Shown here in pieces: positions 2,568-47,244 of a DNA stretch of 64,000 nt (the stretch's first letter is position 1; each line of letters starts with the position of its first letter). The notes under the pieces are model-generated. The model made no database searches, had not been told where the DNA came from, and worked only from the letters and a program-made list of their open reading frames with translations. Made by a program: the position numbers and the translations under genes. Source of the stretch: the human T2T-CHM13v2.0 reference genome, Homo sapiens; assembly GCF_009914755.1 (NCBI RefSeq), contig NC_060925.1, one strand, 5' to 3'.

Positions 2568-4416
2568 CTCGATGGCAGAGGGTCAGCTCCCTTCCTGCTC
2601 CAGGAAACCAAGGGAAGACACTTCCCAGGTTTTAAGCCCCTCTTGAAATCCCTGTGCTTCTATAACTAGCTTTGTGGAGATATATTTTTGTGTTATTCCA
2701 GTATACTAAGGAGCTTTGACATCTGTTTGACTTTTGTTGCACAGATAATTTCTATTAATATCAAATAAATAATTGTGTTATACTTTAATTTCCCCTTTTT
2801 AGATGTAGTACACTCCACTATTTATGCTAAATAAATATACTAGATATGTATGTTGAATGCACTAACAAAATAATTACTTGTCCTTATAACCAACTTTTAA
2901 TAACTGCAAAAAAAAACAAGGAAATAAATATTGATTCTTCTACATTTTCTTTCTATGGGCTTATAATTATGTTACTCTCTTGATATTTAATTTATTCCCT
3001 TCAGTAATCTGGCCGGAAACTAGTATCAAAGACATCACGGCAGTGTTTTAAAATTGTGTCCTCAAGACCACACTGGCAGCATCTGGAAATTTATCTATTT
3101 TGAATCTTCATCAAGTATGCCAGAATTAAATTTAAAGCAGGGAGATACTTTTTCAAATAGCATTGATTTTTTAAAAAGACAAAATAGAGTTTTAATTTAA
3201 ACCAAATTCTAAAGCTGGCTCTGGGAACATGATAAGTAATTTTAATTGGTTTCTTACCATTTTGACTAAAACAAATACATTTTAGCTACAGCTTGTAGTA
3301 AACTTTTTTTTTGTGATTCATGCTACTATAAATCCTTAAAAAAATATAACTTCGACTTTCCAGAGAGACATTTTCTTTTATACACCGCTAAATTTTAACA
3401 TGATTGAAATACCTGTACCTAGCTAAATCTATTTTTCTATTCATTGTGATTCTTAATTTTACAATTGCATGAAAACTAAAACGCTTCTTTATTTTCCTTA
3501 TTGGTAGCATAATTTAGTTTTATTTTACTTAAAAAAAGTGAAATGCATCTATTCTGTATTATATAGTAGCTCAATTGACCTTGCAAATCTCTTTTATCCA
3601 AAAATGAACTATTTTTACATATGCTTTGTGAAAATGGATATTCTTCATTAGTAAAATTAATCACAAAAGTGCATTAACACAATAACAAACTTGACCTGAT
3701 TTTTAGAAATATGGGATACTTCTGAGTAAACGTCCCAAAAAATGGGAGTCAATTGAACATGCTCACCTTCTTGGCAAGCATTTTGATAATACAATTTTCT
3801 CCTTTTCTCTGTTCAAAGCTCCACTTCTCTTGCTATTAAATTATACTTTTGGCTCACTGAAGTGTTTATGACTCAGGATTACTTTAAGTGAATCTGTCTT
3901 CACTAGCATGCGTTTTAAATATAGAGAGTTTCAGTGGTAGAAAACAGTCAAATCAAGAGTTTCAAATATAAATTATTAATTCTATCTTTTTACAACCTAC
4001 TGCTTTTCCTCTTGAGTCCTCGATGGCTTCATGAGTGATAACGTAGTCATATATCTAAGTGTACTAGTCTAGAATAAATGCTACATTTATTTAAGATTTC
4101 TAAATACATAATGAATAAGGACAGAAAAAGTAATTCTTAGCTTTTCAGTATTCAAGTGTGTAATAACCAGCTTTTGTTCACTTGAAACGACAGCGTATTA
4201 TTTCCCGAAGAAAAAGAGTATTTCTTTGATACGTTTTATCATCGTAGGGTTTTAAATGTCAACTAGAAATTTATACATCTTAATTCAATAATTGCAAACC
4301 TACATTTATATTTTAATTATTATATTATTGATATTTTTACTAAAATTATATGTATAATGGCTTGTTTCAAAATGAATTCTGCTTCGGAACCATAAAGTTA
4401 GTTAAAATTTTAACTA

Positions 4417-4590
4417 GTCTCTACAAAAAAATACAAAAATTAGCCGGGCGTGGTGGTGGGTGCCTGCAATCCCAGCCACCCGGGGGGCCGGGGCCCGAGA
4501 AGCGCCAGAACCCAGGAGGCGGAGGCCGCAGCCAGCCGAGATGGCATCACCGCACTCCAGCCCGGGTGAGAAAGCGAGACTCCTGTCTTG

Positions 4591-4618
<28 letters not shown>
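4417..4618 (+). mobile_element. Alu right arm plus A-tail in the inverted 5' segment of the retrocopy (T-to-C rich)
   Basis: GTCTCTAC...ATACAAAAATTAGCCGGGCG to A-tail; about 10 T-to-C vs 2 A-to-G against AluS consensus by manual alignment. Confidence 0.85.
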
Positions 4619-4621
<3 letters not shown>

Positions 4622-4757
4622 CGAGCGTGGTGGTTCACGCCTGCAATCCCAGCACTTTATGGGCACCGTGGAGCACGCTCGCAGTCCCAGCTGCTTGGGA
4701 GGCAGAGGCAGCGGTGAGCCAAGACTGCGCCATTGCACTCCATCCTGGGCAACAAAG
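4619..4757 (+). mobile_element. Internally deleted Alu remnant in the inverted segment
   Basis: Left-arm start (GTGGTTCACGCCTGCAATCCCAGCACTTT) jumps to right-arm pieces ending CTGGGCAACAAAG. Confidence 0.75.
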
Positions 4758-4872
4758 TAGAGATGGTTTTGCGGTGTTGGCTGAGCTGGTCTCGAACCCT
4801 GATCACGGGTGATCTGCCTGCCTCTGCCTCACAGAGTGCTGGGATTGTGGGCGTGAACCACTGCGCCCGGCC
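4756..4872 (-). mobile_element. Alu left arm (antisense in the transcript), A-to-G edited
   Basis: AGTAGAGATGG...CAGAGTGCTGGGATTGTGGGCGTG...GCCCGGCC; consensus ATTACAGG reads ATTGTGGG and CAAAGT reads CAGAGT. Confidence 0.85.
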
Positions 4873-4880
4873 TTGTGTGA

Positions 4881-5147
<267 letters not shown>

Positions 5148-5159
5148 TTGTGTGATTTT

Positions 5160-5236
5160 ATCTAAGGGACTTAAGCATCCTCAGGTCCTAGAGGGTCGTG
5201 AAACCAAAACCCCATAGATAGCAAGGGACAATTGTA
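5160..5236 (+). mobile_element. MER2 (TcMar-Tigger) terminal fragment carried in the retrocopy
   Basis: AGGGACTTAAGCATCCTC...GGTCGTGAAACCAAAACCCCATAGATAGCAAGGGACAATTG-TA; similar to the end of the MER2 at 13431-13758. Confidence 0.65.
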
Positions 5237-5256
5237 TCTTCAAATTAGACAAATGG

Positions 5257-5560
5257 TGCCGGGCACGGTGGCTCGCGCCTGTAGTCCCAGCACTTTCGGA
5301 GGCTGAGGCGGGCGGATCGCCTGGGGTTGAGAGTTGGAGGCCACCCTGGCCAACATGATGAAACCCTGTCTCTACAGAAATGTAGGGATAGCTGGGCGTG
5401 GTGGCGCATGCCTGTGGTCCCGGCTACTGGAGCGGCTGGGGCGGGAGAGTCGCTTGAGCCTGGCGGGCGGAAGTTGCGGTGGGCGGGGATGGCACCACCG
5501 TGCTCCGGCCTAGGTGATAGAGTGAGACTCCGTCTCAAAAACAAAACAAAACAAAACAAA
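5257..5560 (+). mobile_element. Full-length AluS, A-to-G hyperedited
   Basis: Dimeric Alu with (CAAAA)n tail; TSD AAATTAGACAAATG (5242-5255) / AAATTAGACGAATG (5560-5573); about 23 A-to-G against consensus. Confidence 0.95.
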
Positions 5561-6094
5561 AATTAGACGAATGCTACATTAATTGTTTGGGTGGTCAGAT
5601 TCTACTTTGAAGTCTGAAGTTTGCAGATACGCCTATAGATTTTTGGAGTTTACCACTTTTATTCTGTATCATTAATGTAATATTTTAAATTATTGTATAT
5701 TTTACCATTTCTCTGGATTTAGTAAGAAATTTGCAGTTTTGATTTGATGTAACAAAGGTTTTAATGTAATTTATGTTAGATTTTGCATTTTTTTCATTAC
5801 TGTTATACTTTTACCTGACTGAATGACTGATCTCTTTGTATTAGTATTGGGAATAATCATGTGAAATGTTTTGAGGCAGAGTACTATATTTGTGAACATA
5901 ATTTTATGACTTTTTTCGCTTAGTAAGAACCTTTCTATCAGTGTGGAAAACTAAGAAAATTGCTTTCTGCTGTATAATCTGGCATTCATTGTAGATTAAA
6001 GCTTATTTTTCTGTGAATAAAACTTATTCAATAAAATACTATTCTTTAAAATTAAAAAAAATTAAGTAGTCTCTTGGAAGGATACTGACTAGTC

Positions 6095-7559: not shown

Positions 7560-9520
<1,961 letters not shown>

Positions 9521-25289: not shown

Positions 25290-25560
25290 GATTTATTTAG
25301 TTCTGGTTTGCTGCTTCCCAGAGCATTAGCAATGTTCCTTCTTGAAGCAATCATGGAGAAAAAAAAAAGGATTTTTGTTTACATATATATATATATGTAT
25401 CTTTTTCTAGTCATTTTCAGCACACATCCAACTTATTGGAAATTGAAATGTATACCTTAGTTTTATCATTCTCAGTCAAGAAGGCCCTATAATGATCATA
25501 GTAAACACAGTTCGGGAAGTGCTTCATAGACTTTGATTATTCACATCAATATTTTGAGAC

Positions 25561-26886
25561 TGTGTCTGGAATTGGTGGGTTCTTGGTCTCACTGACTTCA
25601 AGAATGAAGCCGCAGACCCTTGTGGTGAGTGTTATAGCTCTTAAGGTGGCGCGTCTGGATTTTGTCCCTTCTGATGTTGAGATGTGTTCGGAGTTTCTTC
25701 CTTCTGGTGGGTTCATGGTCTCGCTGGCTCAGGAGTGAAGCTGCAGATCTTCGCGGTGAGTGTCACAGCTCATAAAAGCAGCATGGACCCAAAGAGTGAG
25801 CAGTAGCAACATTTACTAAAAAGAGCCAAAGAACAAAACTTCCACAGTGTGGAAAGGGACCCGAGCAGCTTGCCATTGCTGGCTGGGGCAGCCTGCTTTT
25901 ATTCTCTTATCTGGCCCCACCCACATCCTGCTGATTGGTAGAGCCCAGTGGCCTGTTTTGACAGGGTGCTGGTTGGTGCGTATACAATCCCTGAGCTGGA
26001 TACAAAGGTTCTCCATGTCCCCATCAGATTAGTTAGATACAGAGTATGGACACGCAGGTTCTCCAAGGCCCCACCAGAGCAGCTAGATACAGAGTGTGGA
26101 TTGGTGCATTCACAAACCCTGAGCTAGACACAGGGTGCTGATTGGCGTGTTTACAAACCTTGAGCTAGATACAGAGTGCCAATTGGTGTATTTACAATCC
26201 CTGAGCTAGACATAAAGACTCTCCACGTCCCCACCAGACTCGGGAGCCCAGCTGGCTTCACCCAGTGGATCCCGCACGAGGGCTGCCGGTGGAGCTGCCT
26301 GCCAGTCCTGCGCCATGCGCTCACACTCCTCAGCCCTTGGGCGGTCGATGGGACTGGGCGCCGTGGAGCAGGGGGCAGCGCTCCTAGGGGAGGCTCGGCC
26401 GCACAAGAGCCCACGGAGTGGGTGGGAGGCTCAGGCATGGCGGGCTGCAGGTCCGGAGCCCTGCCCCGTGGGAAGGCAGCTAAGGCCCGGCGAGAAATCA
26501 AGCACAGCGCTGGTGGGCCAGCACTGCTGGGGGACCCAGTACACCCTCCGCAGCCTCTGGCCCGGGTGCTAAGCCCCTCACTGCCCGGGGCCGGCAGGAC
26601 CGGCCGGCTGCTCTGAGTGCTGGGCCCGCCAAGCCACGTCCACCCGGAACTCCAGCTGGCCCGCAAGCGCTGCACGCAGCCCCGGTTCCCGCTCGCACCT
26701 CTCCCTCCACACCTCCCTGCAAGCTGAGGGAGCCAGCTCTGGCCTTGGCCAGCCCAGAAAGGGGCTGCCATAGTGCAGCGGTGGGCTGAAGGGCTCCTCA
26801 AGTGCCGCCAAAATGGGAGCCCAGGCAGAGGAGGCACCGAGAGCGAGCGAGGGCTGTGAGGACTGCCAGCACGCTGTCACCTCTCC
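25561..26886 (-). mobile_element. LTR12C (HERV9) solo LTR
   Basis: Reverse complement begins GAGAGGTGACAGCGTGCTGGCAGTCCTCACAGCCCTCGCTCGC and ends CCAATTCCAGACACA; 4-bp TSD AGAC (25557-25560, 26887-26890). Confidence 0.95.
25890..26215 (-). promoter_or_regulatory. LTR12C U3 enhancer/promoter repeats (CCAAT/NF-Y, GATA motifs, AATAAAA box)
   Basis: Repeated GATTGG (CCAATC on the minus strand) and CTAGATACAGAGTG units; GCTTTTATTC near 25896; activity not shown by sequence. Confidence 0.65.
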
Positions 26887-28183
26887 AGACTAAGGTAAGA
26901 TATAAGAAGAAACTAGCCTTGAATAAATGGCACAGCCTGATCAATAATTTAAAGGTATTTGAAAAGTAAAACATGCCTTGATTCAACTTCTTACTTCAAA
27001 CTCAGAAGGTTTGCCCAATAATGTGCTGCCTCTGCAAATCGCCCACGCTCTAGGTTTTTTTGTTTTTAAACCTGCTATTTGTATTCAGTAAATTATTCGG
27101 TTGAACATGGGTTTCTATGGAGTAAGTGTCTGTACATAGCGTGGTTCATGCTGTCATTGATATGGCAATATTGGGCAATAATGATTTCTTTATACCAGGG
27201 CAACTCCTCTTTATTCTTCTCAATGAAGGACTACTGCCAAGAGGAATAGCCTGTTAAGCCTTTACCGTCCTTGTGACCTCAAAAATGTTTGTTAAATCCC
27301 TCTTCTAATAAATAAGGAAGGTGTTCACACTAAGAGGAACAGAGAAATACAAATACTTTCTCATGAGATTTGCTGAAAAGTTTAAGGGTAAAGCAATGTT
27401 ACTTTCTTAAAACTTTGAATTTAAAGTGACAAAAAAAGCAATGCTCATATCTTATCTATATCAGATAAGGCAGGTGAGATGTCTGCCTATAATAACACGC
27501 TAAGTCTAGACTAATCAGAGTGCCTTCCTTGACCCAAGTTCAAATTAAAAAGATGACAACAGGCAGCTTTCTTAAAAATGACCATAGCTGGTCAAACCAG
27601 GGTTCTATCATGAAAGGCCTTCGTCTACAGGCAGACCTGAAGCCTGTGAAGTGGACTGGTAAGATTATCCTGTATATTGAACATGGACAAAAGCACCCAG
27701 CTCCTCTCTATTGGGGAATTTAGTGAGAGAAAAGTCAGTAATGACACACAGAATAACAAGGCCTTAAGCAGACACTATTAGGCGGTAGAATCCATGAGTA
27801 ATAGGAACCATATATTAAGGATGAACAAACAGTGGGAAAATGTTAGCATAAATAGAAGAAAAAGAGAGTAACTGAAAGATGAAGCTATGAATAACTCTGA
27901 GGGAATGCTAAGTGTATTTTTTGTCATTGGAGGTCATTGTGACCTGAATGATTTCCCAATTTTCCATAGGACAGTACTAATTTATGTCCCAGGCATGTGT
28001 CCTTATGTCAATACATTCTATAACAGTGCAAGAGGATTCACAACTAAAAAAAAAATTAAGTTAAGATAATTTTTTAAAATGGAACTTGATTAGAAGTATG
28101 TAATGTGTTCCTAAAGTACATGAAGCTTCTAATAGTGAACAAAAAAATGATACATGGCAACTATAAAAATGTCTACACTAAAT

Positions 28184-46765: not shown

Positions 46766-47244
46766 GCAAATAAGTTTAAAACATTGGAAAAAATCATAAT
46801 TACCATAGTTATTTCCTGAAGCAGTGGTCAGTGAGCCACCATCCATAGTCAAATCTGACCTCCTATTTGCTTTGGTAGATAAAGTGTATTGGGAACATGG
46901 CTATTAATTTACATATTATCTATGGCTACATTTTTTGCTGCAGCAAGGAGAGTAGAACAGTTGCAGCAGAGATCCTATGGCCTTGAAGGCCGTGTTTGAG
47001 TTATTGACATCCCACAGAGAGAGGCAAATAAGTTTAAAACATTGGAAAAATTCATAATTACCATAATTATTTCCTGAAGCAGTGGTCAGCGAGCCACCAT
47101 CCATAGTCAAATCTGACCTCCTGTTTGCTTTGGTAGATAAAGTGTATTTGGAACACGGCTATTAATTTACATATTATCTATGGCTACATTTTCTGCTGCA
47201 GCAAGGAGAGTAGAACAGTTGCAAGAGATCCTATGGCCTTCAAG
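46766..47244 (+). repeat. ~222-bp direct duplication (46766-46988, 47024-47244) with a 35-bp inverted insert at the junction
   Basis: Direct alignment: about 8 substitutions and one 2-nt indel; 46990-47024 is the reverse complement of 46697-46731. Confidence 0.95.

What the first reader, a model, noticed from the sequence alone, without database searches (positions are those of the whole stretch)
5242..5573. Fossil of A-to-I RNA hyperediting: an Alu with ~23 A-to-G changes inside a retrocopy
Seen: manual alignment to AluS consensus gives about 23 A-to-G and about 1 T-to-C on the + strand. Examples: CTCAC>CTCGC, TGTAATCCCAG>TGTGGTCCCGG, linker AAAATACAAAAA>GAAATGTAGGGA, GCAGTGAGCCGAG>GCGGTGGGCGGGG. 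The two TSD copies differ by an A-to-G (5569), and CA>TG sites (GCACT>GTGCT) fit editing that created a CpG which later decayed. Established: ADAR edits inverted-Alu dsRNA, inosine is reverse-transcribed as G, and genomic Alus normally drift by CpG C>T/G>A. Inference: an edited transcript was retrotransposed by L1 in the germline, so one ancient RNA molecule's editing pattern is fixed in DNA.
Basis: partly seen in the sequence, partly recalled or inferred. Interest (0 to 1): 0.92.

Follow-up and report, generated by a model that had tools for sequence, protein, structure and literature searches.

The report
Fossil RNA editing in XIAP retrocopy
This is a DNA copy of the tail end of the XIAP messenger RNA in which about four in ten adenines of a base-paired Alu repeat read as guanine, most likely because the RNA had been edited by ADAR before LINE-1 copied it into the germline, which would make it a frozen snapshot of one ancient primate RNA molecule's editing.

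Summary
Confirmed and extended. Window 4417-6060 is a 5'-inverted retrocopy of the distal XIAP 3'UTR (parent on chrX). In the Alu at 5258-5535, 23 of 56 positions where parent and Alu majority have A read G, against 0 of 40 T>C. The excess is confined to Alus predicted to pair (spacer 0/33, unique tail 3/138). It flips strand at the inversion: + strand 28 A>G/0 T>C in the colinear part, 3 A>G/14 T>C in the inverted part (p=4e-9). An Alu that inserted later shows none (0/66). Two sister retrocopies carry overlapping but different A>G sets (21/56, 10/56); a third carries 0/24. G sites are enriched at present-day XIAP editing sites (14/25 vs 18/64, p=0.014). Weak points: no significant 3'-G preference (p=0.24), and no raw reads or ape orthologues were testable. 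Best reading (0.93): ADAR-hyperedited XIAP mRNA retroposed by L1 roughly 20-30 Myr ago (date inferred). Eight literature searches of an open-access library found no report of such a fossil.

The parts
4404..4422 (+). 5' target-site duplication of the retrocopy, preceded by TT (TT/AAAA, L1 endonuclease-type site, consensus recalled). Its 3' end matches the reverse complement of the RNA at the inversion point, the likely second-primer microhomology
   Evidence: 16 of 19 identical to 6056-6074; junction compared with parent and chr12 copy
4417..4590 (-). Inverted segment, part 1: right arm of antisense Alu 'B' of the ancestral XIAP 3'UTR, absent from the modern parent and present in the chr12 sister copy. 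Reads T>C on + (A>G in RNA sense)
   Evidence: 10 of 28 A>G vs 3 of 40 T>C in RNA sense against the Alu majority; alignment to chr12 copy
4591..4618 (-). Tail of Alu B (A28 on +, a U tract in the RNA)
4619..4769 (-). Inverted segment, part 2: remnant of antisense Alu 'A' (parent L031 8108-8216 and about 8308-8340) with an internal deletion of about 90 nt
   Evidence: RNA sense 6 A>G of 26 and 1 T>C of 22 vs parent; 4/16 vs 0/15 polarised; junction
4756..4883 (+). Start of the colinear segment: left arm of antisense Alu B (parent 8364-8494), predicted pairing partner of the left arm of Alu C
   Evidence: 5 of 17 A>G, 0 of 21 T>C polarised; 118 of 133 nt of the Alu C left arm pair with it in the folded parent
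4884..5148 (-). Later, 5'-shortened Alu insertion (AluY-like; label recalled) with its own TSD 4873-4883 / 5149-5159. Absent from parent and sisters. DNA-only internal control
   Evidence: 0 of 66 A>G and 1 of 37 T>C vs majority; TSD
5149..5257 (+). Non-Alu spacer between Alu B and Alu C (hairpin loop region), unedited
   Evidence: 0 of 33 A>G
5242..5573 (+). Sense Alu 'C' (5258-5559) with TSD 5242-5255 / 5560-5573: the finding. 23 of 56 ancestral A read G, plus 5569 in the 3' TSD
5574..6054 (+). Unique 3' end of the XIAP 3'UTR with AATAAA at 6016-6021 and 6030-6035; no A>G excess
   Evidence: 93% to chrX parent; 3 A>G of 138 and 5 T>C of 207
6054..6074 (+). Short poly(A) remnant and 3' TSD (6056-6074); the parent continues with non-A sequence

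Best explanation
The insert is a retrocopy of the distal XIAP 3'UTR whose paired Alus read G where the gene has A, most likely because ADAR deaminated those adenosines in the mRNA and L1 reverse transcriptase then copied each inosine as G into germline DNA. Shown: parent identity, A in the parent, direction, confinement to Alus, strand flip, sister copies. Predicted: antisense Alu B and sense Alu C, about 110 nt apart, formed a long hairpin, and Alu A paired with upstream Alu D. Inferred: ADAR edited about 36% of Alu adenosines (42 of 117 polarised) on both arms. The polyadenylated RNA was captured in trans by L1 ORF2p, primed at its poly(A) at a TT/AAAA nick, and primed a second time internally inside Alu B (twin priming), which inverted the 5' 350 nt. 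The copy was then fixed, aged (a few new CpGs decayed to TG) and received a later Alu. It is an inert record; no present function is claimed. Age inferred at roughly 20-30 Myr.
For: Parent: BIR exons 25-28 kb upstream on the same strand, RING exon and stop at the start of the UTR, and 47 of 47 published XIAP editing coordinates land on A at one offset (next best offset 28). Direction: 23/56 A>G vs 0/40 T>C. Confinement: spacer 0/33, tail 3/138 (p=6e-6 and 1e-11). Fold of the parent pairs B with C and A with D. Strand flip: colinear 28 A>G/0 T>C, inverted 3/14, p=4e-9. The B right arm and Alu C now lie in the same orientation 700 nt apart yet show opposite changes. Later Alu 0/66. Sisters: chr12 21/56 and chr1:45M 10/56, with pairwise overlaps above chance (p 5e-5 to 8e-4) but 6 and 4 private sites in the window and chr12 copies. 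Unedited controls: chrX:146.97M copy 0/24 where the window has 12/24, and a chr5 copy ending at a proximal site with a single Alu 1/45. 5'-G depletion: p=0.019 for the window, p=0.005 over the union of sites. Overlap with modern sites 14/25 vs 18/64, p=0.014. XIAP 3'UTR is an ADAR1-edited inverted-Alu substrate today (PMC5520689, abstract and passages).
Against: 3'-G preference not significant in any copy (p=0.24, 0.29, 0.85). Overlap with modern sites is not significant for chr12 (11/29 vs 25/98, p=0.14), chr1 (6/25 vs 7/58, p=0.15) or the union within Alu C (11/18 vs 24/48, p=0.30), and the modern list is a subset filtered for miRNA effects. The B right arm has no parent, so 10 of the 14 inverted-part changes are scored against an Alu majority only; the part with a parent is not significant alone (4/16 vs 0/15, p=0.10). 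The outer TSD matches at only 16 of 19. One assembly only; no reads or primate orthologues examined.
Confidence: 0.93

Rival explanations
1. The edited copies are not independent snapshots of XIAP mRNA: one edited retrocopy (or a lost source copy) was transcribed or duplicated and gave rise to the others. Editing is still the origin, but there are fewer independent events.
For: Eight sites are G in all three copies and the chr1 copy has no private site. The chr12 and chr1 copies share three non-CpG differences (parent 8485, 9160, 9192).
Against: A tree of the unique tail rejects window+chr12+chr1 as one clade (p-AU 0.0225; 491 columns, few informative sites). The window instead shares a dinucleotide with the unedited chrX copy (9162-9163). 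The copies have different 5' ends, their own TSDs and non-homologous flanks.
Confidence: 0.04
2. The ancestral XIAP allele carried G at these sites and the gene later reverted to A.
For: A few shared Gs are truly ancestral (parent 8389, 8733, 8847), where the Alu majority has G or all copies agree.
Against: The Alu majority, the parent and the chrX copy all have A (0/24 G). It needs A>G>A at 23 or more sites and does not explain copy-specific patterns.
Confidence: 0.01
3. A DNA-level bias after insertion (GC-biased gene conversion, replication or transcription strand asymmetry, local hypermutation) produced the Gs.
For: The insert is GC- and CpG-rich (57% GC, CpG o/e 0.71). Sister copies show strand-asymmetric background in their tails (chr2 copy 7 T>C vs 0 A>G).
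Against: No T>C or other weak-to-strong change in Alu C; sign reverses at the inversion; nested later Alu and spacer are untouched; the same positions are hit at three unlinked loci.
Confidence: 0.01
4. Error-prone L1 reverse transcription through a hairpin, or an assembly or sequencing artefact.
For: The insert has other scars of difficult copying (inversion, 90-nt deletion). Clustered same-type mismatches can be sequencing artefacts in trace data (PMC2873906 passages).
Against: A single substitution type, limited to paired Alus, enriched at sites edited today, recurring in three loci, with signs of later CpG decay. The artefact described in PMC2873906 is G-to-A.
Confidence: 0.01

Closest known systems
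ADAR1 editing of inverted Alus in the XIAP 3'UTR (PMC5520689; site list in PMC11462282 supplement 2)
   Same: Same transcript, same Alus; 14 of 25 listed modern sites covered by the copy (polarised) read G.
   Different: Here the pattern is in genomic DNA, from one ancient molecule, and includes an Alu arm the modern gene lacks.
Ultra-edited or hyper-edited RNAs (PMC3197674, abstract and passages)
   Same: More than 20 A>G per molecule, in Alus with near inverted partners, with G depleted upstream.
   Different: Those are cDNA/EST records of living RNA. The downstream G excess they report is not significant here.
APOBEC3 'DNA editing' fossils in LTR retrotransposons (PMC4866542 passages; PMC2873906 passages)
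   Same: A deaminase acts on a retro-intermediate and the unidirectional, strand-biased cluster is fixed in the genome; found by pairing a copy with its source.
   Different: There G-to-A, on cDNA, in retroelements. Here A-to-G, on RNA before reverse transcription, in a cellular mRNA.
L1-mediated processed pseudogene with 5' inversion by twin priming (model recalled, not read here)
   Same: TSD, TT/AAAA site, poly(A) at the mRNA 3' end, inverted 5' segment, microhomology at the 5' junction.
   Different: 3'UTR only, so no exon junction to test; carries edits.
Retroprocessing of edited mRNAs in plant organelles and kinetoplastids (recalled, not read here)
   Same: Edited RNA written back into DNA.
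   Different: C-to-U or U-insertion editing, usually replacing the gene; not ADAR, and not a dispersed L1 copy.

Membership tests
L1-mediated retrocopy (processed pseudogene) | Parent locus elsewhere; copy ends at the mRNA 3' end followed by untemplated A | tested here: met
   copy ends at parent 9374 after two AATAAA; short A run in copy, not in parent
L1-mediated retrocopy (processed pseudogene) | Target-site duplication at a TT/AAAA-like site | tested here: met
   4404-4422 / 6056-6074, 16 of 19 identical, preceded by TT
L1-mediated retrocopy (processed pseudogene) | Loss of introns | not testable with these tools
   copy lies wholly within the last exon
Twin-primed 5' inversion | Inverted 5' segment starting near where the colinear segment starts; target end complementary to RNA at that point | tested here: met
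   both segments meet at parent about 8364-8372; TSD end matches the reverse complement there
ADAR hyperediting | Dense unidirectional A>G on the RNA sense strand | tested here: met
   23/56 vs 0/40; strand flip p=4e-9
ADAR hyperediting | Confined to long dsRNA of nearby inverted Alus | tested here: met
   predicted fold; spacer 0/33, tail 3/138, single-Alu chr5 copy 1/45
ADAR hyperediting | G depleted 5' of edited A | tested here: met
   5/27 vs 27/62, one-sided p=0.019; union 7/39, p=0.005
ADAR hyperediting | G enriched 3' of edited A | tested here: inconclusive
   15/36 vs 17/53, p=0.24
ADAR hyperediting | Coincides with sites edited in the parent transcript | tested here: met
   window 14/25 vs 18/64, p=0.014; not significant for the sisters
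ADAR hyperediting | Dependence on ADAR enzyme; inosine in the RNA | not testable with these tools
   ancient event
GC-biased gene conversion tract | Strand-symmetric weak-to-strong changes | tested here: not met
   0 T>C, 0 A>C/T, 0 T>G/A in Alu C
APOBEC3 DNA editing | G>A clusters relative to the ancestral sequence | tested here: not met
   3 G>A vs 28 A>G; A is ancestral by majority and unedited sister

The most novel reading that the evidence does not exclude
Retrocopies of Alu-rich 3'UTRs are a datable archive of single-molecule germline A-to-I editomes from extinct primates. XIAP alone left three edited and two unedited snapshots, showing hot spots shared across about 20-30 Myr. The window copy records editing of a full-length Alu duplex whose right arm the human gene has since deleted, and editing helped seed a CpG-island-like patch that is now heritable DNA.
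Probability: 0.6. Interest if true: 0.87.

Novelty: new variant of a known kind. Interest (0 to 1): 0.78.

Why it matters
If right, it is direct sequence evidence that a somatic-type RNA modification can be written into the human germline genome, and that inosine-rich mRNA is a workable L1 substrate. A 2016 review states that a role of ADAR editing in Alu evolution had not been determined (PMC4982230 passage). It makes ancient editing measurable: level per molecule (41%, 38%, 18%, 0% of Alu C adenosines in four copies), hot-spot conservation, and the effect of a structural change in the UTR. It offers a simple genome-wide screen (retrocopy vs parent, A>G in RNA sense, sign flip at inversions). 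It also flags a mapping hazard: edited XIAP reads may align better to these copies than to XIAP (inference).

Tried and rejected
No genome-wide screen of retrocopies was possible because the whole genome was not available to scripts; only fetched stretches were analysed. A search with the parent's unique stretch just upstream (L031 7090-7830) found no further retrocopy, only short repeat matches. The spacer search found no Alu-C-bearing copy beyond the three (the tool says counts are lower bounds). Short 3'-end fragments on chr2, 19, 20 and the acrocentric or centromeric arrays cover only parent 9137-9372 and contain no Alu, so they are uninformative for editing. The chr19 and chr2:113M XIAP copies lack or stop at the upstream Alu. 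The chr5 copy's 7 raw A>G shrank to 1 of 45 after polarising, so it is counted as unedited. I considered that 4417-4618 is a separate later Alu and rejected it, because the chr12 copy has the same arm continuous with Alu B. A shift of editing toward Alu C's right arm in fossils vs modern sites (11/12 and 9/12 vs 14/4) is borderline (p=0.06, 0.05) and is not claimed. Literature: searches (listings only, except papers named as read) gave no report of ADAR edits fixed in a retrocopy. The library omits most subscription journals, and one relevant paper on DNA editing of retrotransposons (10.1038/ncomms1525) was not held, so prior art is not excluded.

Full report
Observation. The Alu at 5258-5549 carries 23 A>G and 2 T>C against a majority computed from 38 other Alus, the highest A>G count of 41 Alus examined.

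Parent. Window 5574-6053 matches five other loci over nearly its full length at 91-93%. The chrX locus at 122.224 Mb has no poly(A) after the match. It has BIR-domain exons 25-28 kb upstream on the same strand and a RING-coding exon and stop 6.8 kb upstream. I took the 47 distinct XIAP editing coordinates at or above chrX:123,046,100 from the 137 XIAP rows of PMC11462282 supplement 2 (rows for more upstream Alus were left out because the copies do not cover them). All 47 fall on A at a single offset, against 28 for the next best offset. The parent is therefore the distal XIAP 3'UTR, and the gene has A where the copy has G.

Anatomy. The insert runs from 4417 to about 6060 between TSDs 4404-4422 and 6056-6074 (16/19 identical). 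4756-6054 is colinear with parent L031 8364-9374, interrupted by a later Alu at 4884-5148 with its own TSD. 4417-4769 is inverted. The end of the 5' TSD matches the reverse complement of the RNA at the inversion point, as twin priming predicts (model recalled). The inverted part holds the right arm and tail of an antisense Alu (B) that the modern gene lacks but the chr12 copy shares, and a remnant of antisense Alu A with a deletion of about 90 nt. The single offset across the region implies that the assembly behind the published coordinates also lacks that arm.

Substitution spectrum. Against the parent, Alu C has 28/66 A>G and 1/49 T>C; the B left arm 6/20 and 1/30; the spacer 0/33; the unique tail 3/138 and 5/207. 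Keeping only positions where parent and Alu majority agree (10 parental A in Alu C dropped, 5 of them G in the window), Alu C has 23/56 A>G, 0/40 T>C and no other change from A or T. This excludes GC-biased conversion. The parent folds with B paired to C's left arm and A paired to upstream Alu D. The window's own molecule with the inversion turned back still pairs 238 of 283 B positions with C (prediction).

Strand flip. On the window + strand the colinear part has 28 A>G and 0 T>C, and the inverted part 3 A>G and 14 T>C (p=4e-9). The changes therefore follow the strand of the RNA and predate the inversion, which arises during reverse transcription. Caveat: 10 of the 14 are scored against the Alu majority because the parent lost that arm. 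The Alu that inserted later, between the edited ones, has 0/66 A>G.

Sister copies. The chr12 copy has 21/56 and the chr1:45M copy 10/56 A>G in the same Alu, both with 0/40 T>C. The chrX:146.97M copy has 0/24 where the window has 12/24. A chr5 copy that ends at a proximal site with one Alu has 1/45. Edited sets overlap more than chance (16 shared between window and chr12, 8.6 expected), with 8 sites common to all three, 6 private to the window, 4 to chr12 and none to chr1. Flanks are unrelated, and separate TSDs were seen for the chr1 and chr2 copies. A tail tree rejects a single clade of the three edited copies (p-AU 0.0225; weak data). This fits independent molecules with shared hot spots.

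ADAR signature. G 5' of the site is depleted (5/27 vs 27/62, p=0.019; union of sites 7/39, p=0.005). G 3' of the site is not significantly enriched (p=0.24). Both preferences are the published motif (PMC3197674 passages). Sites listed as edited today are more often G in the window copy (18/31 vs 22/81, p=0.0025; polarised 14/25 vs 18/64, p=0.014). This is not significant for the sisters or within Alu C alone, and the list is a filtered subset. CA>TG double changes (4 sites) fit editing followed by CpG decay but are only suggestive (p=0.066). ADAR1 editing of the XIAP 3'UTR inverted Alus is published (PMC5520689, abstract and passages).

Age. The window has 10 private substitutions in 467 tail positions and a terminal branch of 0.027. 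With a recalled neutral rate near 1e-9 per site per year this is roughly 20-30 Myr (inference).

Unexplained. The insert is the most CpG-rich kilobase of the window (58 CpG, o/e 0.71). Alu C holds 21 CpG against 10 in the parent and 7 and 9 in the sisters, and keeps 9 of 12 old CpG against 4, 7 and 7. Germline hypomethylation is possible but untested.

Comparison and novelty. Each ingredient is known: L1 retrocopies, twin priming, Alu hyperediting, and APOBEC fossils in LTR elements (PMC4866542 and PMC2873906, passages). PMC7186786 treats genomic G at edited sites as selected point mutation (abstract and passages). PMC5224506 found no editing in the L1 RNA it sequenced (passages). PMC5974252 and PMC4982230 passages describe no edited retrocopy. 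PMC8419749 was used only for a supplement look-up. Eight searches (listings) found no report of an ADAR pattern fixed in a retrocopy, but subscription journals are largely absent. bioRxiv supplements were not consulted, and full editing catalogues would bear on the overlap test. Verdict: real; ADAR-edited XIAP mRNA retroposed by L1 (0.93); a new variant of known kinds; interest 0.78.

Noticed in passing
L031 8325-8365 (XIAP 3'UTR) vs window 4417-4640: The modern XIAP gene appears to have lost about 200 nt (tail and right arm of Alu B) by a deletion between homologous Alu segments; the window copy preserves the ancestral state.
   Followed up: partly
L032 (chr12 copy, reverse strand about 3635-5156): Independently A>G-rich XIAP retrocopy. 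It has a different deletion joining the start of Alu A to Alu B, and a roughly 70-nt insertion in the T tract resembling an L1 3' end (label recalled).
   Followed up: partly
L035 5493-6485 and L034 5735-6239: These two sister copies show T>C excess in the unique tail (9 vs 2 and 7 vs 0 A>G), possibly transcription-associated asymmetry from host genes on the opposite strand. In L035 it runs against, and so does not explain, the Alu's A>G.
   Followed up: no
L007-L030, L036-L042: A 240-nt fragment of the XIAP 3' end with a poly(A) remnant is embedded in a unit amplified many times (about 6-7 kb spacing) on acrocentric and pericentromeric contigs and on chr2, 19 and 20: an older XIAP retro-fragment caught in a composite repeat.
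   Followed up: partly
L050 661-1841 (chr5:53.28 Mb): Another XIAP 3'UTR retrocopy with a 5' inversion, ending at a proximal site; its single Alu is essentially unedited.
   Followed up: yes
window 4417-5560: CpG-island-like composition (65 CpG, 57% GC, o/e 0.71), the highest CpG density in the window.
   Followed up: partly
window 25560-26887: GC-rich solitary LTR-like element on the minus strand with internal 41-50 nt tandem repeats (LTR12-like; label recalled). Ordinary.
   Followed up: no
window 46766-47244: Near-perfect 258-bp tandem duplication (1.9 copies, 95% match).
   Followed up: no
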